The notes under the pieces are model-generated. The model was not told the DNA's origin. It was given only the letters and a program-made list of their open reading frames with translations, and searched no databases. Position numbers and translations under genes: made by a program. Shown piece after piece: positions 1 to 16,869 of a stretch of DNA of 16,869 bases. The stretch covers positions 1 through 16,869 of the IMG/VR virus record IMGVR_UViG_3300045988_062617, one strand, 5' to 3'. Source of the stretch: a virus. The stretch's first letter is position 1. Every line of letters starts with the position of its first letter.

Positions 1-27
1 TTTGCCCCATTAAATTTCAAACCCCCT
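1..27. repeat. Left inverted terminal repeat (ITR), 27 bp
   Basis: nt 1-27 (TTTGCCCCATTAAATTTCAAACCCCCT) are the exact reverse complement of nt 16843-16869. The match stops at position 28. The ITRs sit at the extreme ends of the window, and the genome carries a terminal-protein / family-B polymerase gene pair. Confidence 0.9.
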
Positions 28-62
28 CCACAATTTCCCCCAAAAAAGTTGCATACAAGTAC

Positions 63-91
63 TTGACAAGTGACCGCACCTATGATATAAT
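63..91 (+). promoter_or_regulatory. Early promoter P1 (sigma-A type, extended -10)
   Basis: TTGACA at 63-68, a 17-nt spacer, then TGaTATAAT with TATAAT at 86-91. It shares ACTTGACAA and the 25-nt block ATATAATAAAGGTACAAAGAAAGGA with P2. Confidence 0.7.
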
Positions 92-155
92 AAAGGTACA
101 AAGAAAGGAAGGAAAGGGATACAAAAAATAAAATAAAATAAAGTACAAAAGGTAC

Positions 156-184
156 TTGACAATTAGCTGAATATGTAATATAAT
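156..184 (+). promoter_or_regulatory. Early promoter P2 (sigma-A type)
   Basis: TTGACA at 156-161, a 17-nt spacer, TATAAT at 179-184. It is followed by the RBS AAAGGAG and the ATG at 212. Confidence 0.75.
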
Positions 185-729: not shown

Positions 730-791
730 GGGTGCGTGGTCGGCACGATTACAGTTTCAACACTGTACGCCCTTTAGCACCACTAAGGTGC
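730..791 (+). repeat. 62-nt structured intergenic element, copy 1 (three-way junction plus hairpin)
   Basis: 59/62 nt identical to 1331-1392. Predicted stems: P1 730-734/768-772, P2 735-738/744-747, P3 750-755/762-767, P4 777-781/787-791. All three substitutions between the copies fall in hairpin loops. Confidence 0.8.
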
Positions 792-832
792 AGAAAACAA
801 ACAACACTACAATAGAAAGAAGAGGTATTACT

Positions 833-1132
833 ATGGCAAGAGAAAAAATGGTGACAAGGACAGTAACCCAGACAACGGCAGAAGTTATGACAATTGATGT
901 TACAACGGCAGAAGTGCAGATACGTGAGTACACTATCGGTGGTACTTATGACACTAACGAAACACTACTAAAAAAACTTCAGAAGCTTTTCCAGACCGAT
1001 ACATTTAAGCTTGTAAACATCAACACCACCACTGTAGAGGATTTACTACTCGGAATGACAGAAGAGGACTTCATTAAATACGCTACAGTTCTTCCACCTA
1101 GAAGTGCTAAAAAAGAAAGTGAGGAGAGTTAA
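833..1132 (+). CDS. phi29 p6-like histone-like dsDNA-binding protein, paralogue 1 (99 aa)
   Basis: The ATG at 833, with RBS GAAGAGG, is preferred over the track start at 788. MAREKMVTRTVTQTT...MTEEDFIKYATVLPP with an acidic C-tail resembles phi29 p6 as recalled from memory (..REITKTTVNV...YELPVEKFLEVATV.., acidic tail). It is also clearly paralogous to 1976-2314. Confidence 0.6.
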   Translation: MAREKMVTRTVTQTTAEVMTIDVTTAEVQIREYTIGGTYDTNETLLKKLQKLFQTDTFKLVNINTTTVEDLLLGMTEEDFIKYATVLPPRSAKKESEES

Positions 1133-1133
1133 C

Positions 1134-1301
1134 ATGAAAAAGTCAAATACAGTGCGGATAATGGTTGAATTTAAAGATTCTGATTCAGAGCGTTTTGTAA
1201 CAGACTCATTTTCGCTTGATTCTGGTGTACTGACAATCAAGCAAGGTTATGGCAAGAGTACATTACGGTTAGACTTCATCAAGTCAATTTACATATTCTA
1301 A
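1134..1301 (+). CDS. Hypothetical small early protein, 55 aa
   Basis: The ATG at 1134 is preceded by GAGGAG. The track start at 1104 lies inside the previous gene and lacks an RBS. No motif recognised. Confidence 0.5.
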   Translation: MKKSNTVRIMVEFKDSDSERFVTDSFSLDSGVLTIKQGYGKSTLRLDFIKSIYIF

Positions 1302-1330
1302 GAATTCATAAAGTTAGTCAAAACTAACAA

Positions 1331-1392
1331 GGGTGCGTGGTTGGCACGATTACAGTTTCAACACTGTACGCCCTTTAGCACCAACAAGGTGC
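1331..1392 (+). repeat. 62-nt structured intergenic element, copy 2
   Basis: Same fold as copy 1: P1 1331-1335/1369-1373, P2 1336-1339/1345-1348 with loop GUUGG, P3 1351-1356/1363-1368 with loop UUCAAC, P4 1378-1382/1388-1392. It lies 43 nt upstream of the next start codon; copy 1 lies 41 nt upstream of its own. Confidence 0.8.
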
Positions 1393-1435: not shown

Positions 1436-1693
1436 ATGAGTAAACACTATGTAAAGTTAGTAAAGGAAATGATTAAAGAGGACATCAAGGATGATGTAGT
1501 CATATCAGTTGTAAACGGAACTCTTGTGGTAGACATATATGTAAATCACTGTTTATGTTGGCACACGGCTATACCACGTATCGAATTGCGAGCTAGTTCA
1601 TATATGACAGCGAAAATCGTGGCAGACACAGTAAAAAATCAATACAGACAGTTCATTTTGGATAAGTATTTTGTTCGGAAAAAATTCAAATAA
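1436..1693 (+). CDS. Hypothetical early protein, 85 aa
   Basis: ATG preceded by AAGAGGG. No motif recognised. Confidence 0.6.
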   Translation: MSKHYVKLVKEMIKEDIKDDVVISVVNGTLVVDIYVNHCLCWHTAIPRIELRASSYMTAKIVADTVKNQYRQFILDKYFVRKKFK

Positions 1694-1697
1694 ATAC

Positions 1698-1726
1698 TTG
1701 ACAATAATTACGGTATATGCTATTAT
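1698..1726 (+). promoter_or_regulatory. Early promoter P3 (sigma-A type, extended -10)
   Basis: TTGACA at 1698-1703 within ACTTGACAA, a 17-nt spacer, then TGcTATTAT with the -10 at 1721-1726. It begins five nt after the stop codon of the previous ORF. Confidence 0.7.
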
Positions 1727-1732
1727 ATAATT

Positions 1733-1928
1733 GTAGCAAGGGTATAAGCAAAAAAATCTTAGTTACGTTGCCATAGGTGGTGTAGACTCCCAACCCTCTA
1801 CATCACCTGCCCCCTTAGTAGGTGTAGTTTATTGGTAAAATGCGTGAATCTTAAATAAACAATATCATCGCTCATTCACGTGAAACAGGTTCAATACCTG
1901 TCACCTGCTCTAGTGCTTTATAGCACTA
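1733..1928 (+). ncRNA. Candidate structured non-coding RNA or long leader (possible prohead-RNA analogue)
   Basis: No credible ORF lies between P3 and the ATG at 1976. Predicted structure: a 12-13-bp hairpin (1774-1786/1797-1809) with the C-rich loop CUCCCAACCC; a three-way junction closed by 1817-1824/1902-1909 that encloses hairpins 1843-1849/1874-1880 and 1885-1890/1896-1901; and a terminal hairpin 1911-1917/1922-1928. The ends and the function are not established. Confidence 0.35.
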
Positions 1929-2710: not shown

Positions 2711-2745
2711 AACAGCGTGTGCTTTAATCGGTACACGCTGTTTTT
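2711..2745 (+). terminator. Intrinsic terminator inside the early operon
   Basis: The stem CAGCGTGT (2713-2720) pairs with ACACGCTG (2733-2740). It is extended by A-U pairs and followed by TTTTT at 2741-2745. Confidence 0.75.
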
Positions 2746-7277: not shown

Positions 7278-8000
7278 ATGGGTGATATTAACAAAGCTGT
7301 TTCTTTCATGATTAACACAGCAAAGGACAATATTCATGGTTATGACCAACAGCACAGAAATGGCCCAGATTATGACTGTAGTTCACTGGTAGGGACAGCA
7401 TTATACTATGCAGGTTTCGCTGTTTCGCCATATTCATGGACTGGCAATTTAGAATCACAGTTAAGAAAAGCAGGGTTTGTAGATTGCAAAGCACCATGGA
7501 AAGCAGGTGACATTCATTTAAACAGAGGAAACCACGTATGTATGAGTATCAATGAAAGCCAGATAGTTGAAGCGTCAATTAACGAAAAAGGAACACCCAC
7601 AGGTGGTAAAACTGGTGACCAGACAGGTAAAGAAATTCAGATTACTTCCTATTATAATTATTATCTAGGATGGGATTTACACTTGAGATTTACTGGTGCA
7701 AACACAAACAACAATAAAGGCTATACTGTTAAAGAAATAGCCAGACAGGTTATTGAAGGTAAATGGGGTGTCGGTAACGAGAGAAAAAGACTCTTAGAAA
7801 AAGCAGGTTATAATTATGATGAAGTACAAAACTATGTAAATGAACTCTTTACAAAAGGTGGTTACAAGTCGAACGGTGAAGTTGCAAGAGAAGTTATCAA
7901 AGGTGTATGGGGTGTAGGAAAAGAAAGAAAAAACAGACTTGAAAAAGCAGGTTACAATTACGACGAGATTCAAAAACTCGTTAACCAGATGTTAGGATAA
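7278..8000 (+). CDS. Endolysin: N-terminal cysteine peptidoglycan hydrolase (Amidase_5 / NlpC-P60-like) plus two CW_7 cell-wall-binding repeats
   Basis: Putative catalytic residues are Cys34 (YDCSS) and His86 (GNHVCM), with a GDQTGKE motif. Two copies of the CW_7 signature are present: GKWGVGNERKRLLEKAGYNYDEVQNYVN at nt ~7722-7847 and GVWGVGKERKNRLEKAGYNYDEIQKLVN at nt ~7872-7994. Confidence 0.9.
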   Translation: MGDINKAVSFMINTAKDNIHGYDQQHRNGPDYDCSSLVGTALYYAGFAVSPYSWTGNLESQLRKAGFVDCKAPWKAGDIHLNRGNHVCMSINESQIVEASINEKGTPTGGKTGDQTGKEIQITSYYNYYLGWDLHLRFTGANTNNNKGYTVKEIARQVIEGKWGVGNERKRLLEKAGYNYDEVQNYVNELFTKGGYKSNGEVAREVIKGVWGVGKERKNRLEKAGYNYDEIQKLVNQMLG

Positions 8001-14141: not shown

Positions 14142-16775
14142 ATGTTTACAGATGTAGAAACACTTAGATACTGGACTTTAAAGGCGTTACCATTGGTTTA
14201 CGATGACTCACTTAGTTATATGGAAGTGCAGGGCAAAATTGTTAAAAAATTAAACGAGCTGATTAAGAACAATAATCAGTTGCCAGAACACATTAGAGAG
14301 CTTATTAAAACGTACATTTCCAGTGGTGAAATTGATAACATTATTGCTGAGATTTTAAGTGATTATATGCTTAGTGTTAAAAATCCACCAGAAAATTTGA
14401 AACCTGCTGTTGGTGATGGCTCAGCAGATGATACAGAAGCAATTCAGGGTTGTTTGGACTATGCCAAAGCCCACCATGGTATGTGCGTTTACTTCCCGAG
14501 TGGTGCTTATCTTACTAGCACAATAACACTTCCAGAAAATAGTGATGTTACTATGTTTGGTCAGGGAAGATATGTTACTAGACTGGTACTTAGAGGTGGC
14601 GCAACCGAAGCTATGTTAAAGGGTTCAGTAAAGAGTCTTACTTTAACAGGTTTGATGTTTGACGGAAACGGGGATATTCAGGTTAATAATGTTGACCTTA
14701 TCAAGTGTAATGTTGCTAACGCTAGTATTTCGCAGTGCATTCTTACAGATGGATTCAATTTGCTTGATGTTAACGCTAGTGGAAATGTACAGATTAGTCA
14801 TGTTATTTTTGACCATGCTATTGAAGAAAGTTTAATTATTCGTGGTACTGGTAACTCACATTGTGATAATATTACATTTAATACTATTTCAAGCCTAGTC
14901 GGAAAAGAATTTTTTACATTAGAATCTAATGATAATGTTGTTAAATGCAACTGCACAGGCGATGCTAGAAAACTGTTCACAGTTAGTGGCAACAGAAACT
15001 ACATTGAAGTAGATAACATTAGTGGTAACGTTGAAATACCTACCTTTAGTGATACTGGTGAACAGAATACAATTAAGATTAACAGAATTGCTATTAAGGA
15101 TAAAGTTAAAACTACTGATTTTTCAAGCGAAATAACTATTGTTAACTGTGGTGATGCTAATATTAACGGAAGTAGCAAGACAGAAGAATATACTGGTGAT
15201 GTTAGTTGTAGTGGCGTAAACAAGACAGAAGAATATACTGGTGATGTTAGTTGCAGTGGCGTAAACAAGACAGAAACATTTACTGGTGATGCTAGTTGCA
15301 GTGGTGTAAACAAGACAGAAACATTTACTGGTGACGAACAAAATAGATGTAATAATTACGAGCTTGATGCAAAAATGGTTACTATCGGTAGTGATAGAAC
15401 GCTAAATATTATAGAAAAAACAGAAAGCAAAACAGAAACGATTAACGGAAATTTAGTTAAAAATATTGACACATTAAACGAAACAATAACAGGAAATAGA
15501 ACTATAACTTGTAATGGAACAAATAAAGAAACTTATACGGGTAGTACAATAGAAAGAAGTAAAGATAAATCTGTTATCGCTGATACTATTGACGTGGATT
15601 CAAAGAATCCAATTAAATACAAAACACCTATACAGTCACCTACAACAGAATTTTTTGACTATGTGCCTATATTAGACAGAGATGGCAATGAAAGAAAAGT
15701 AATGGTTGAAAATGAAAAGACCAAACACCTTGCATCTACAACTGAAAGCTATGTTCTTATCATTGGTGATAGCTACGCCGGAGGATTTACCGCAGGTGGA
15801 GACGTTACTGGTTTTCCAAAACTTATGGCACAATACGCTGGATGGGTTGAAAATAAAACATACTGGCATGAAGAAACAGGTGGTGCAGGTTTTGGTAAAA
15901 AAGGTGGAGCAGACTTTACTAAAGACTTTAACCAGTTAACGACAGACGCTTATAATAGAATGAATGATGTCCAGAGATTGGGTATTAAGAAAATCCTGTA
16001 TGCAGGTGGATGGAACGATGCTGATGTATCGCAGTCTAATATTATGACAGGGATGAAGAACACATTTACTAATGCTCGGAAAAAATTCCCTAACGCTGAA
16101 ATCTATGTGGCTATGATTGGATGGAGTGTTGACTATAGTAAACGTGAAGAGATTATTACTAATGCACTTCCTGCTTATACTAGGTGTGGTAAATATGGAG
16201 CTAGATATATTACTAATTCAGAATATATTATGCACAACTATGGTGGTATCAGTAGATCCGATAATCAGCACCCTAACGAAGAGAACCAAGACTTAATAGC
16301 TACCTATCTTTTAAGCGGGATTTTACATGGTAATTGTGATGTACAGTATAGGCAACGTGTTCCATTCCATATTAACGAAAAAGCTGTTTCAAAAATTAGT
16401 AGCTTAGGTGTAATGAGCTTATCGAATGATGTTACATCATGGAACATTGGACGTATAACTATTGACTTTAATTATAATAATAAAATTAGTGGTGGTAGTA
16501 TTGTTCAGGTTGCTACAGTTGATGAAAATTGCTTGATACTTGGTGGTCCGTTAGGGTCTAATAAATTTAGTGCCTCAGTTAATGGATATATGCAAGACGA
16601 GTCAGGTGGAACTAAATTCTATGATTTTAACGGCGTTATTTCTATTGACGCAGGACATGTCAACTTGTCATTTGACAAGATTAACGGTACCAATAATGGG
16701 TATCAAAATTTTGACAGGCCTTATCAGGCTAACATTGATGTAGCTACGATTACTACGGCTAGTATAGAGTGCTAG
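14142..16775 (+). CDS. Tail appendage / receptor-binding protein: N-terminal anchor, pectate-lyase-like beta-helix, 15-aa repeat shaft, SGNH/GDSL hydrolase domain and C-terminal domain (877 aa)
   Basis: It occupies the phi29 gp12 position. GDGSADDTEAIQGCLDYAKAHHGMCVYFPSGAYL is a pectate_lyase_3-type beta-helix signature. The SGNH blocks are IIGDSYAGG (G542 D543 S544, nt 15765-15773), YAGGWNDA and DNQHPN (D707/H710, nt 16260-16271). Confidence 0.85.
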   Translation: MFTDVETLRYWTLKALPLVYDDSLSYMEVQGKIVKKLNELIKNNNQLPEHIRELIKTYISSGEIDNIIAEILSDYMLSVKNPPENLKPAVGDGSADDTEAIQGCLDYAKAHHGMCVYFPSGAYLTSTITLPENSDVTMFGQGRYVTRLVLRGGATEAMLKGSVKSLTLTGLMFDGNGDIQVNNVDLIKCNVANASISQCILTDGFNLLDVNASGNVQISHVIFDHAIEESLIIRGTGNSHCDNITFNTISSLVGKEFFTLESNDNVVKCNCTGDARKLFTVSGNRNYIEVDNISGNVEIPTFSDTGEQNTIKINRIAIKDKVKTTDFSSEITIVNCGDANINGSSKTEEYTGDVSCSGVNKTEEYTGDVSCSGVNKTETFTGDASCSGVNKTETFTGDEQNRCNNYELDAKMVTIGSDRTLNIIEKTESKTETINGNLVKNIDTLNETITGNRTITCNGTNKETYTGSTIERSKDKSVIADTIDVDSKNPIKYKTPIQSPTTEFFDYVPILDRDGNERKVMVENEKTKHLASTTESYVLIIGDSYAGGFTAGGDVTGFPKLMAQYAGWVENKTYWHEETGGAGFGKKGGADFTKDFNQLTTDAYNRMNDVQRLGIKKILYAGGWNDADVSQSNIMTGMKNTFTNARKKFPNAEIYVAMIGWSVDYSKREEIITNALPAYTRCGKYGARYITNSEYIMHNYGGISRSDNQHPNEENQDLIATYLLSGILHGNCDVQYRQRVPFHINEKAVSKISSLGVMSLSNDVTSWNIGRITIDFNYNNKISGGSIVQVATVDENCLILGGPLGSNKFSASVNGYMQDESGGTKFYDFNGVISIDAGHVNLSFDKINGTNNGYQNFDRPYQANIDVATITTASIEC
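15177..15335 (+). repeat. In-frame 45-bp tandem repeat, about 3.5 copies, inside the appendage gene
   Basis: The units are 15177-15221, 15222-15266, 15267-15311 and a partial unit at 15312-15335. They encode KTEEYTGDVSCSGVN (twice), KTETFTGDASCSGVN and KTETFTGD. Copies 1 and 2 differ by one synonymous nucleotide (TGT/TGC). Confidence 0.9.
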
Positions 16776-16785
16776 TGTAATGGTG

Positions 16786-16827
16786 AGCAGGTTTGTATGC
16801 AGATAAATGCATATGAGCCTGCTTTTT
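16786..16827 (+). terminator. Late-operon intrinsic terminator
   Basis: A composite hairpin in which AGCAGG (16786-16791) pairs with CCTGCT (16818-16823). An inner TATGCA/TGCATA stem lies within it, and TTTTT follows at 16823-16827. It starts 11 nt after the appendage stop codon and ends just inside the right ITR. Confidence 0.75.
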
Positions 16828-16842
16828 AGTGTACATATGAAA

Positions 16843-16869
16843 AGGGGGTTTGAAATTTAATGGGGCAAA
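16843..16869. repeat. Right inverted terminal repeat (ITR), 27 bp
   Basis: AGGGGGTTTGAAATTTAATGGGGCAAA is the reverse complement of nt 1-27. Confidence 0.9.

What the first reader, a model, noticed from the sequence alone, without database searches (positions are those of the whole stretch)
730..1392. Twice-repeated 62-nt RNA-like element: compact three-way junction with mutually complementary loops
Two intergenic copies (730-791 and 1331-1392) are 59/62 identical, although the genes flanking them are unrelated. Each lies about 41-43 nt upstream of a start codon.

Each copy folds with almost no unpaired linker. A 5-bp closing stem (GGGUG/CGCCC) is followed by a 4-bp hairpin, a 6-bp hairpin (UACAGU/ACUGUA) and then a 5-bp hairpin (GCACC/GGUGC). 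All three substitutions between the copies fall in hairpin loops.

In copy 2 the P2 loop GUUGG is complementary to the P3 loop UUCAAC (GUUGG:UCAAC, 5 bp including one G-U). This is the hand-in-hand loop logic used by phi29 prohead RNA. Copy 1 (GUCGG) carries one mismatch.

The 4-5 nt just 5' of the element (ACTA in copy 1, AACAA in copy 2) recur as the loop of its own terminal hairpin (ACTAA, AACAA). GCACC could also pair with either the upstream or the downstream GGUGC, which allows alternative folds.

Candidate roles:
- a miniature or heteromeric pRNA-like packaging RNA;
- a put/EAR-like cis-acting antiterminator RNA acting on the terminator at 2711-2745;
- an RNase processing or stabiliser site;
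- a protein-binding site.

I do not recognise it as any described family.
Basis: partly seen in the sequence, partly recalled or inferred. Interest (0 to 1): 0.72.

Follow-up and report, generated by a model that had tools for sequence, protein, structure and literature searches.

The report
Anticodon-less tRNA mimic in phage mRNA
The repeated 62-nt element is a real, conserved RNA structure in the early mRNA of a small gut phage; it is best read as a miniature tRNA look-alike with no anticodon arm, followed by a hairpin, which probably tells the host's tRNA-trimming enzymes where to cut the mRNA and then protects the new end.

Summary
Two + strand copies (730-791, 1331-1392) are 59/62 identical, and the minimum-energy fold is the proposed three-way junction plus hairpin. 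The window is a complete 16.9-kb phi29-like phage genome with inverted terminal repeats. The element lies in its early operon, before a p6-like DNA-binding gene and an 85-aa gene.

Covariance models find it in 61 of 80 related gut-phage contigs, always on the coding strand. All 20 base pairs show compensatory changes.

The "complementary loops" are better explained as a tRNA elbow. The P2 loop ends in GG in 56/60 sequences and the P3 loop starts with UUC in 59/60, and nothing else in the loops covaries. Variants in the same slot carry canonical T-arms, and one nearly reaches Rfam's mascRNA (tRNA-like) threshold. Other relatives have a hammerhead ribozyme or a promoter in that slot.

Best reading (inferred, untested): an anticodon-arm-less tRNA-like signal cut by RNase P and/or RNase Z, with the hairpin acting as a 5' stabiliser. 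The pRNA and put-like ideas are not supported. No Rfam family or paper describing it was found. A cultured relative, Clostridium phage CS229P2, makes the model testable.

The parts
730..772 (+). Copy 1, tRNA-like three-way junction. Acceptor-like P1 730-734/768-772 (A729-U773 can extend it). D-like arm 735-747 (loop GUCGG). T-like arm 750-767 (loop UUCAAC).
   Evidence: The minimum-energy fold equals this structure. Covariation is shown, and loop conservation. Models R1 and R2 score it 98 and 94 bits.
773..776 (+). Linker UUUA: discriminator-like base plus a U-rich trailer. This is the inferred RNase Z cleavage zone.
   Evidence: The linker is UUUA, AUUA, UUUC or UUUU in nearly all homologues. 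That it is cleaved is inference.
777..791 (+). P4 hairpin GCACC-ACUAA-GGUGC, the inferred 5'-terminal stabiliser of the downstream mRNA.
   Evidence: All 5 pairs covary, and the sequence is fully replaced in relatives while the hairpin is kept. There is no U-tract, so the scan does not call it a terminator.
833..1132 (+). Downstream gene 1: p6-like dsDNA-binding protein (99 aa). The ribosome-binding site is around 814-826.
   Evidence: Matches phrog_6370 at E = 2.8e-6. This gene family follows the element in most relatives.
1331..1373 (+). Copy 2, tRNA-like three-way junction. P1 1331-1335/1369-1373 (extendable to 7 bp with AA/UU). D-like arm 1336-1348 (loop GUUGG). T-like arm 1351-1368.
   Evidence: (96 bits).
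1374..1392 (+). Copy 2 linker UUUA (1374-1377) and P4 hairpin GCACC-AACAA-GGUGC (1378-1392).
1436..1693 (+). Downstream gene 2: 85-aa protein of unknown function (MSKHYV...). Its orthologues (MERIFTNALKKQ...) follow the element across the clade.
   Evidence: No Pfam or PHROG match.
1818..1909 (+). Third module: a tRNA-like element with normal acceptor, D and T arms but an oversized 'anticodon' loop. Probably not a decoding tRNA.
   Evidence: Rfam tRNA scores it 45.4 bits with a 24-nt insertion. ARAGORN calls Leu here, but Phe, Leu or nothing in close relatives. Relatives carry 58-61-nt insertions at the same place.
1911..1928 (+). Hairpin UAGUGCU-UUAU-AGCACUA, 2 nt after the tRNA-like element and upstream of the second p6-like gene (1976-2314).
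   Evidence: Fold. The same tRNA(-like)+hairpin layout occurs in L001, L046 and L051, where the tRNA is a true tRNA-Gln.
63..184 (+). Two consensus sigma-A-type promoters (63-91, 156-184). They would transcribe the operon that holds both copies.
   Evidence: Each matches 12 of 12 consensus positions. No promoter-like site lies directly upstream of either copy.
1698..1726 (+). Third strong promoter. It drives a leader of about 250 nt that contains the tRNA-like element at 1818-1909.
   Evidence: Matches 11 of 12 positions, with a TG extension.

Best explanation
Each copy is a cis-acting RNA module inside the phage's polycistronic early mRNA. It has two parts.

1. A miniature tRNA mimic with no anticodon arm. 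An acceptor-like stem stacks on a T-like arm, about 11-13 stacked pairs in all. A short D-like arm has a loop ending in GG, which would dock on the UUC of the T-like loop to form a tRNA 'elbow'.
2. Three to four U-rich nucleotides later, a hairpin of arbitrary sequence. It is followed by an unstructured A-rich leader, the ribosome-binding site and the gene.

Proposed mechanism:
- Host RNase P (at the 5' edge) and/or RNase Z (just after the acceptor stem) recognise the elbow and acceptor stack and cut the mRNA.
- This separates the downstream cistron (p6-like DNA-binding protein, or the 85-aa protein) from the upstream RNA.
- The new 5' end carries the hairpin, which would shield it from 5'-to-3' decay by RNase J. 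That raises expression of proteins needed in bulk.

Shown here: the conserved structure, its tRNA-like features, its positions, and its interchangeability with other elements.
Inferred: which enzymes act, that cleavage happens, and the stabilising effect.
For: Structure
- Both copies fold as proposed.
- In 60 distinct homologues 96.6% of cells are paired and 17 of 20 pairs have double changes. In a more diverse set of 49, all 20 pairs have double changes and 96.2% are paired, against 62% in shuffles. No shuffle out of 500 reaches these values, and slid controls collapse.
- An alignment made without structure already shows C-G to U-A in P3 and a completely different P4 sequence in MT835814.
- Frequent G-U pairs on the + strand only, and all hits lying on the coding strand, point to RNA.

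tRNA likeness
- The P2 loop ends in GG in 56/60 sequences. The P3 loop starts with UUC in 59/60 and reads UUCRA.
- The pair closing the T-like loop is G-C in 21 sequences, U-A in 17 and U-G in 8.
- Model R2 joins the window type to variants with canonical T-arms, such as CAAGG-UUCAAUU-CCUUG. Scores: L033:384 63.5 bits, L079:322 50 bits, L001:1025 46.5 bits.
- Rfam independently aligns L033:387-432 to the tRNA-like mascRNA-menRNA family. The score is 37.4 bits, E = 2e-4, with the anticodon stem deleted.
- The window's own T-like arm, ACAGU-UUCAAC-ACUGU, closely resembles the T-arm of the neighbouring tRNA-like element, ACAGG-UUCAAUA-CCUGU.

Processing role
- The slot before the p6-like gene holds a tRNA-like element in most relatives.
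- It holds a type-I hammerhead ribozyme with covarying stems in L047-L049 and L129. L132 has a complete hammerhead upstream (core 499-545) and a second matching cleavage site just before the p6-like gene.
- It holds a promoter in L120 and L046.
- All three create a new 5' end there.
- A hairpin follows the cut site behind the tRNA-like elements, behind true or odd tRNAs, and behind the hammerhead.
- RNase P and RNase Z both bind the elbow and the acceptor/T stack and do not need the anticodon arm (PMC4919913).
- tRNA-like t-elements direct RNase P/Z cuts at mRNA ends in plant mitochondria (PMC1920247).
- The host is probably a Clostridia-class Firmicute. The nearest cultured phage infects Clostridium symbiosum.
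Against: - There are no RNA-end data, so cleavage is wholly inferred.
- The window copies do not score with Rfam tRNA or mascRNA models, even when only 86 nt are searched.
- Their T-like loop has 6 nt, not 7, and is closed by U-A rather than G-C.
- There is no 2-nt spacer between the acceptor and D stems.
- The acceptor is only 5-7 bp. About a third of homologues have an A-A mismatch at the possible extra pair (linker AUUA).
- Cutting by Clostridial RNase P or RNase Z on such a minimal substrate has not been shown.
- The covariation alignments were fitted to the model, which favours the structure.
- A stable structure alone could block exonucleases without any cleavage.
Confidence: 0.55

Rival explanations
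1. A passive structural roadblock or 5' stabiliser only. The compact junction plus hairpin stops RNase J1 or other nucleases that enter from upstream cuts. No tRNA-processing enzyme recognises it.
For: The structure is stable and strongly conserved, and it sits directly upstream of highly expressed early genes. The P4 hairpin is conserved as a shape rather than a sequence.
Against: It does not explain why unpaired loop nucleotides typical of a tRNA elbow (GG, UUCRA) are conserved. It does not explain why canonical T-arms, true tRNAs and self-cleaving hammerheads occupy equivalent slots.
Confidence: 0.15
2. The excised mini-tRNA mimic of about 45 nt is itself the functional product. It would act in trans as a small RNA that binds or titrates a factor recognising tRNA elbows (RNase P, CCA-adding enzyme, a modification enzyme, the ribosome or a defence protein). 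mRNA cutting would be a by-product.
For: The elbow features are under selection. There are several copies per genome, up to 4 in L126. mascRNA and plant t-elements accumulate as stable small RNAs (PMC1920247; for mascRNA, general knowledge).
Against: The position is tightly tied to the start of particular genes, 40-50 nt upstream with a following hairpin. It is replaceable by a hammerhead or a promoter, neither of which yields such an RNA. No target is known.
Confidence: 0.12
3. A binding site for a phage or host protein that controls translation or stability of the downstream gene, for example autoregulation by an early protein.
For: The spacing to the start codon is fixed and loop nucleotides are conserved.
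Against: Two unrelated gene families are served by the same element. The conserved loop bases are exactly those of tRNA. No candidate RNA-binding protein was identified.
Confidence: 0.08
4. A miniature or heteromeric pRNA-like packaging RNA that oligomerises through intermolecular loop-loop pairing.
For: The phage is phi29-like. Copy 2 has 5 complementary loop positions.
Against: The loop complementarity is not conserved and does not covary; it is possible in 15 of 60 sequences. There is no Rfam pRNA hit. The element has no promoter of its own and lies inside mRNA leaders. Its size and architecture are unlike pRNA.
Confidence: 0.02
5. A put/EAR-like processive antiterminator that lets RNA polymerase read through the hairpin at 2711-2745 into the terminal-protein and polymerase genes.
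For: A terminator-like hairpin with a T-run lies at 2711-2745, and no consensus promoter lies before gene 2769.
Against: No similarity to known antiterminator RNAs. The tRNA-type features are left unexplained. The promoter at 1698 starts downstream of both copies and also feeds that terminator. Relatives replace the element with a hammerhead or a promoter.
Confidence: 0.03
6. A small riboswitch with a three-way junction and loop-loop docking, like the purine aptamers.
For: It is a three-way junction with possible loop contacts, located in a 5' leader.
Against: The junction has almost no unpaired nucleotides to form a pocket. There is no terminator and no pairing that would sequester the ribosome-binding site. 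P4 does not alternate in relatives.
Confidence: 0.02

Closest known systems
mascRNA / MEN-beta tRNA-like small RNAs (Rfam RF01684)
   Same: The acceptor stem runs directly into a short D-like stem whose loop ends in GG, followed by a T-arm with a UUCRA loop. It is embedded in a longer transcript and is cut out by RNase P and RNase Z (general knowledge). A variant in the same phage slot (L033:387-432) aligns to this model at 37.4 bits, E = 2e-4.
   Different: mascRNA is a vertebrate nuclear lncRNA feature and keeps an anticodon-like stem. The phage element has none (the 13 model positions are replaced by 2 nt). The window copies do not score at all. There is no evidence of common descent.
Plant mitochondrial t-elements (Forner et al. 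2007, PMC1920247)
   Same: Non-canonical tRNA-like structures next to protein genes in polycistronic transcripts. Their edges coincide with mRNA 5' and 3' ends, and they are proposed (partly shown) to guide RNase P/Z. This is the closest functional analogue.
   Different: A different system (organelle versus phage in Firmicutes). t-elements were found through the GGTTCRANYCC motif and have more complete cloverleaves. There is no dedicated downstream hairpin module.
Murine gammaherpesvirus 68 tRNA-miRNA encoding RNAs (TMERs)
   Same: A viral tRNA-like structure is followed immediately by hairpin(s), and RNase Z cuts between them (general knowledge).
   Different: These are eukaryotic pol III transcripts. 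The hairpins are pre-miRNAs, not the 5' end of an mRNA, and the tRNA-like part has four arms.
tmRNA tRNA-like domain
   Same: A tRNA mimic made of acceptor stem, T-arm and a reduced D-loop, without an anticodon arm. Rfam aligns T-arms of slot variants to the tmRNA T-arm.
   Different: In tmRNA the two halves are separated by about 300 nt of pseudoknots and the tag reading frame, and it ends in an aminoacylatable CCA. The phage element is contiguous, internal to an mRNA, and has no encoded CCA.
Hammerhead ribozymes in phage genomes
   Same: They occupy the equivalent position upstream of the p6-like gene in relatives (L047-L049, L129). Both would generate a new 5' end followed by a hairpin.
   Different: They cleave themselves through the CUGANGA...GAAA core, which the window element lacks.
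phi29 prohead RNA (pRNA, RF00044)
   Same: A small structured RNA with a three-way junction in a phi29-like phage.
   Different: pRNA is 120-174 nt, has its own promoter, and its intermolecular loop pairing covaries. None of these holds here.

Membership tests
tRNA (Rfam RF00005) | Four-arm cloverleaf with an anticodon arm; scores at or above 29 bits with the tRNA model | tested here: not met
   There is no anticodon arm: only 1-2 nt lie between the D-like and T-like arms. No tRNA hit at E <= 10 was found over 650-2000 or 715-800, and ARAGORN finds nothing there.
tRNA-like structures (general class: elbow-forming mimics) | T-arm with a UUCRA T-loop, plus a D-loop GG able to form the elbow | tested here: met
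   UUC starts the P3 loop in 59/60 sequences and GG ends the P2 loop in 56/60. Homologous variants have canonical 5-bp/7-nt T-arms.
tRNA-like structures (general class) | Acceptor stem and T stem stack to about 12 bp | tested here: inconclusive
   In the window, 5 (P1) + 6 (P3) = 11 pairs, or 12-13 with the flanking A-U pairs predicted. Variants give 5+7, 6+6 or 7+5. Many homologues have an A-A mismatch at the extension.
tRNA-like structures (general class) | Cleavage by RNase P and/or RNase Z, or CCA addition | not testable with these tools
   This needs end-mapping or in vitro assays.
mascRNA-menRNA (RF01684) | Score at or above the gathering threshold of 42.5 bits | tested here: not met
   The window copies give no hit. 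The best relative, L033:387-432, scores 37.4 bits, below threshold.
phi29 pRNA (RF00044) | Match to the pRNA model; conserved and covarying intermolecular loop-loop pairing; a discrete gene with its own promoter | tested here: not met
   No Rfam hit. A loop-loop helix of 5 bp is possible in only 15/60 sequences, without compensation. No promoter lies upstream.
Hammerhead ribozyme (CL00010) | Conserved core CUGANGA ... GAAA around a three-way junction | tested here: not met
   The core is absent from 730-791 and 1331-1392 and there is no Rfam hit. Hammerheads do occur in the same slot of relatives.
put / EAR processive antiterminator RNAs | Model match; promoter-proximal position; action on downstream terminators | tested here: not met
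   No Rfam hit. The copies lie about 570-640 and 1170-1240 nt downstream of the two promoters' -10 boxes at positions 91 and 184. Effect on termination cannot be tested here.
Intrinsic terminator | GC-rich hairpin followed by a U-run | tested here: not met
   P4 is followed by AGAAAAC (copy 1) or GAUAACU (copy 2). The scan does not report it.

The most novel reading that the evidence does not exclude
Small protein-primed phages of gut Clostridia punctuate their early polycistronic mRNAs with interchangeable RNA-cleavage cassettes. A cassette is either a 43-nt tRNA mimic without an anticodon arm, which borrows host RNase P/Z, or a hammerhead ribozyme. Each is followed by a protective 5' hairpin. 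This would be a bacterial-virus counterpart of mitochondrial 'tRNA punctuation'. It would also release a new class of mini-tRNA-like small RNAs that may have trans functions.
Probability: 0.45. Interest if true: 0.8.

Novelty: new variant of a known kind. Interest (0 to 1): 0.68.

Why it matters
- If host tRNA-maturation enzymes cut these elements, this is a compact way for a phage to set different mRNA levels within one operon. No paper describing it was found. It would extend the tRNA-punctuation principle from organelles and eukaryotic lncRNAs to bacterial viruses.
- The element is about 43 nt. It would be one of the smallest natural RNAs that keeps a tRNA elbow, which makes it a useful minimal substrate for studying RNase P, RNase Z and the CCA-adding enzyme.
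- It is also a candidate portable part: cleavage site plus 5' stabiliser, for building operons in Firmicutes.
- The swap between tRNA mimic, hammerhead and promoter at one genomic slot is a natural experiment on equivalent ways to make an mRNA 5' end.
- It is a warning for annotation. 'tRNA' calls in these phages (for example 1818-1909) may be processing signals rather than decoders.

Tried and rejected
- **Rfam searches.** I ran gathering and permissive thresholds on the whole window, on 650-2000 and on 715-800. Nothing matched the two copies.
- **pRNA / hand-in-hand loops.** Rejected on the loop statistics.
- **Alternative fold** (5' GGUGC or 3' GGUGC competing for GCACC). It is possible in this window. 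It is lost in relatives where P4 is GUGUAC/GUACAC, CGGC/GCCG, GACCA/UGGUC and so on, so it is not a conserved switch.
- **Flank ACUA/AACAA recurring in the P4 loop.** Not kept in other slot-1 copies, for example ACUA with loops AGUCA or UACAU.
- **Terminator, RNase III site, riboswitch.** There is no U-tract, the helices are only 4-6 bp, and there is no junction pocket or expression platform.
- **DNA-level repeat or protein-coding explanation.** Rejected because G-U pairs occur on one strand only, changes are compensatory, and the position is intergenic.
- **Bacterial and archaeal genomes.** An exact 25-nt degenerate core pattern found nothing.
- **More distant phi29-like phages.** Model R2 and a T-loop-hairpin scan on PZA, phiCPV4, CI644P3 and MT835904 found no such element. 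MT835854 has only a lone T-arm-like hairpin. The element therefore seems confined to this gut clade, within the sensitivity of these screens.
- **Literature.** Searches on tRNA-like + phage + RNase P/Z + processing, and on phi29-like + hammerhead, found no description of it.
- **Chimeric 'add an anticodon arm' test with ARAGORN.** Considered and not run, because it is too contrived.
Full report
**What the window is.** The 16,869-nt window has 48-nt inverted terminal repeats at its two ends (I1). It encodes a phi29-type DNA polymerase (phrog_1907, E = 4e-127), a phi29-type SSB (PF17427) and two paralogous p6-like dsDNA-binding proteins (phrog_6370). It is therefore a complete genome of a small protein-primed podovirus.

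Its nearest database relatives are uncultured human-gut phages: MT835814 and many IMG/VR contigs of 15-17 kb. The nearest cultured phages are Clostridium phages CS229P1-3, which infect Clostridium symbiosum and share 65.6% polymerase identity.

Three consensus sigma-A-type promoters lie on the + strand, at 63-91, 156-184 and 1698-1726. Both copies of the element lie inside the operon transcribed from the first two.

**The observation.** Both copies are real and are not chance. They occupy 730-791 and 1331-1392 and differ at 3 loop positions, with 0 matches expected in 200 shuffles. The duplicated segment is in fact 96 nt long (D2).

The z-scores are about -3. The copies end 41 and 43 nt before ATG 833 (p6-like protein) and ATG 1436 (85-aa protein).

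**Conservation and covariation.** I built a covariance model (R1) from 13 copies. It finds the element in 37 of 44, and then 24 of 36, related IMG/VR contigs at E <= 1e-5. There are usually one or two copies per genome, always on the coding strand of the early region. It finds none elsewhere in the two full genomes searched.
- In 60 distinct sequences, 96.6% of base-pair cells are paired and 17 of 20 pairs show double (compensatory) changes.
- I rebuilt the model from this alignment (R2) and searched again. The resulting, more diverse set of 49 sequences has all 20 pairs with double changes and 96.2% pairing, against 62% in shuffles. Slid-partner controls fall to 20-55%.
- These alignments are fitted to the model. 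However, a plain MAFFT alignment already shows C-G to U-A in P3 and a wholly different P4 sequence that still forms a hairpin in MT835814.
- G-U pairs are common on the + strand. They would be A-C mismatches on the other strand.

The folded molecule is therefore the mRNA.

**What the loops say.** Across the family the P3 loop is UUCAAC, UUCGAC or UUCAAUU, so it starts with UUC in 59/60 sequences. The P2 loop ends in GG in 56/60, but is otherwise variable in sequence and in length (GUUGG, GUUUGG, AUAGG, ACAGG and others). There is no matching change in P3, and a 5-bp inter-loop helix is possible in only 15/60. This is the signature of the tRNA elbow: D-loop G18-G19 contacting T-loop U55-C56.

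**The tRNA connection.**
- In relatives, the slot upstream of the p6-like gene holds variants that R2 aligns confidently with the window type, and these carry textbook T-arms. Examples are CAAGG-UUCAAUU-CCUUG (L033), GGUAGG-UUCGAAU-CCUACC (L087) and GAUAGG-UUCAAAC-CCUAUC (L001:1025). Scores range from 40 to 64 bits.
- The pair that closes the T-like loop is G-C in 21 sequences, U-A in 17 and U-G in 8. The window's U-A is thus a variant of tRNA G53-C61.
- Rfam independently aligns L033:387-432 to mascRNA-menRNA, the tRNA-like RNA cut out of MALAT1. It scores 37.4 bits (threshold 42.5), E = 2e-4, with the anticodon stem simply missing.
- T-arms of other variants align to the tmRNA T-arm.
- All variants share one architecture. 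The acceptor stem runs straight into a 3-4-bp D-like arm. Then come 1-4 nt, a T-like arm and the 3' acceptor strand. After 3-4 U-rich nt there is a hairpin.
- Acceptor plus T stems add up to about 12 stacked pairs: 5+6 plus optional A-U pairs in the window, and 5+7, 6+6 or 7+5 elsewhere.
- The window copies themselves are too reduced for any Rfam model. I therefore file them as tRNA-like, not as tRNA or mascRNA.

**A third module in the window.** The 'tRNA-Leu' at 1818-1909 has good acceptor, D and T arms but a 24-nt insertion in the anticodon loop. In close relatives ARAGORN calls it Phe, Leu or nothing, and more distant relatives have 58-61-nt insertions there. It is followed 2 nt later by a hairpin (1911-1928) and then by the second p6-like gene. 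In L051 the same position holds a true tRNA-Gln (70.8 bits), again followed at once by a hairpin. The repeated design is therefore: tRNA or tRNA mimic, then a hairpin, then the ribosome-binding site and the gene.

**Interchangeable occupants of the slot.**
- In L047-L049 the slot before the p6-like gene contains a hammerhead core: ACACCC-CUGACGAG-stem II-CGAAA-CACA...UGUG-UC|GGGUGU.
- In L129 it contains GUACCA-C(C/U)GAUGAG-...-CGAAAC-GCG...CGC-GUC|UGGUAC. L132 has this hammerhead complete at about 510-603, some 260 nt upstream of the gene, and a second matching cleavage site at 808/809 just before the gene.
- All three stems differ between the two types while pairing is kept.
- Rfam gives sub-threshold hammerhead hits: 26.7 and 24.1 bits, and a type II hammerhead at 34.8 bits (threshold 37) elsewhere in L118.
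- After the predicted cut, the new 5' end can fold into a terminal hairpin (GGGU-GUA-ACCC, or UGGUAC...GUACC).
- In L120 and L046 a promoter sits directly in front of the gene.

A tRNA mimic, a self-cleaving ribozyme and a promoter have one thing in common: each creates an mRNA 5' end at that place.

**Mechanism (inferred).** RNase P and RNase Z both recognise the tRNA elbow and the acceptor/T stack and measure from it, and neither needs the anticodon arm. CCA is an anti-determinant for RNase Z, and downstream uracils are reported to activate the B. subtilis enzyme (review PMC4919913 and its reference 74). The elements encode no CCA and are followed by UUUA, AUUA or UUUC.

Plant mitochondrial t-elements are the precedent for tRNA-like structures that direct RNase P/Z cuts at mRNA ends (PMC1920247). 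I therefore propose three steps:
1. Cleavage at the element's borders detaches the downstream cistron.
2. The P4 hairpin is left 0-3 nt from a monophosphorylated 5' end. There it would hinder 5'-exonucleolytic decay, which is the established 5'-stabiliser principle in Firmicutes (general knowledge).
3. The upstream fragment ends without a protective 3' hairpin.

The genes served fit this model. p6 in phi29 is a very abundant protein (general knowledge). I put about 0.8 on 'tRNA-elbow-forming cis RNA element' and about 0.55 on the full processing-plus-stabiliser mechanism.

**Rivals.** I considered a passive roadblock, a trans-acting released mini-RNA, a protein-binding operator, pRNA, a put-like antiterminator and a riboswitch. 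They are weighed in the rivals section. The first two are compatible with parts of the model. The last three are contradicted by the loop statistics, the position or the missing features.

**Novelty.**
- No Rfam family covers it, and no paper describing it was found in four literature searches.
- GenBank does not annotate the equivalent element in cultured phage CS229P2. It lies at 1913-1963, before a p6-like gene that is 40% identical to the window's second p6-like paralogue (1976-2314).
- It was not detected in PZA/phi29-type, C. perfringens or C. innocuum phages.
- Its core pattern is absent from 185,579 bacterial and archaeal genomes.
- The principle, a tRNA-like processing signal, is known. 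The anticodon-less architecture, the coupled hairpin, the phage setting and the swap with hammerheads are new as far as I can tell.

Noticed in passing
window 1-48 and 16822-16869: 48-nt inverted terminal repeats (79% complementary). The window is therefore a complete linear genome of a protein-primed, phi29-like phage.
   Followed up: partly
window 1733-1909: The strong promoter at 1698-1726 drives a non-coding leader of about 250 nt. It has a conserved 5' motif (AGUUACGUUGCCAUAG, also in L001 and L046) and a hairpin at 1776-1808 whose 3' strand repeats the 3' acceptor strand of the tRNA-like element (CACCUGC). Then comes the tRNA-like element with an oversized anticodon loop. If RNase Z cuts at 1909, a discrete RNA of about 180 nt would be released. 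It could be this clade's packaging RNA or another ncRNA.
   Followed up: partly
L047:446-527, with extra sites at L047:880/881 and 1695/1696; L132:510-603 with an extra site at 808/809: Type-I hammerhead ribozymes with large stem III insertions in relatives' early leaders. The same transcripts contain further 'substrate-only' sites (hairpin-GUC|GGGUG, or GCGUC|UGGUAC) that match the single catalytic core. One hammerhead may therefore cut several sites in cis at long range, or in trans.
   Followed up: partly
L114:~1040-1110, also L110, L115, L116 (upstream of the p6-like gene): A fourth kind of structured element in the same slot: AACCCU-nnUAGCAGACA-[GCGGUG...CACCGC]-A-AGGGUU, followed by the hairpin CCGC-AAUAAA-GCGG. 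The UAGCAGAC motif also precedes the extra cleavage sites in L047. It matches no Rfam family and its nature is unknown.
   Followed up: no
L118:376-440: Hammerhead type II candidate in the early region of a relative that also has a tRNA-like element upstream of its p6-like gene. It scores 34.8 bits, just under the threshold of 37.
   Followed up: no
window 2711-2745: A terminator-like hairpin (AACAGCGUGU...ACACGCUGUU followed by UUUUU) lies between the SSB gene and the 196-aa (terminal-protein-position) and polymerase genes. No consensus promoter follows it. Expression of the replication genes may need read-through.
   Followed up: no
window 59-133 vs 152-226: A duplicated promoter module (75 nt, 75% identity) with two perfect TTGACA-17-TATAAT promoters in tandem. 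L047 has three such tandem promoter repeats. Each of the first two is followed by a copy of the 13-mer AGTTTCAACACTG, which is identical to part of the T-like arm of the window element.
   Followed up: no
window 15149-15328: At least four tandem 45-nt (15-codon) units (the tool reported them as three overlapping 90-nt copies) inside the 877-aa ORF 14142-16775, which is probably a tail or receptor-binding protein.
   Followed up: no
window 7734-7975: Two 98-nt repeats, 73% identical and 144 nt apart, inside ORF 7278-8000. This suggests a duplicated domain of about 48 aa, possibly for cell-wall binding.
   Followed up: no
L139 (OP172773.1, Clostridium phage CS229P2) 1913-1963: An unannotated tRNA-like element without an anticodon arm: 7-bp acceptor UCCCGGA/UCCGGGA and T-arm GAGGGG-UUCGACU-CCCCUC. 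It lies before the p6-like gene at 2085-2372 in a cultured phage.
   Followed up: partly
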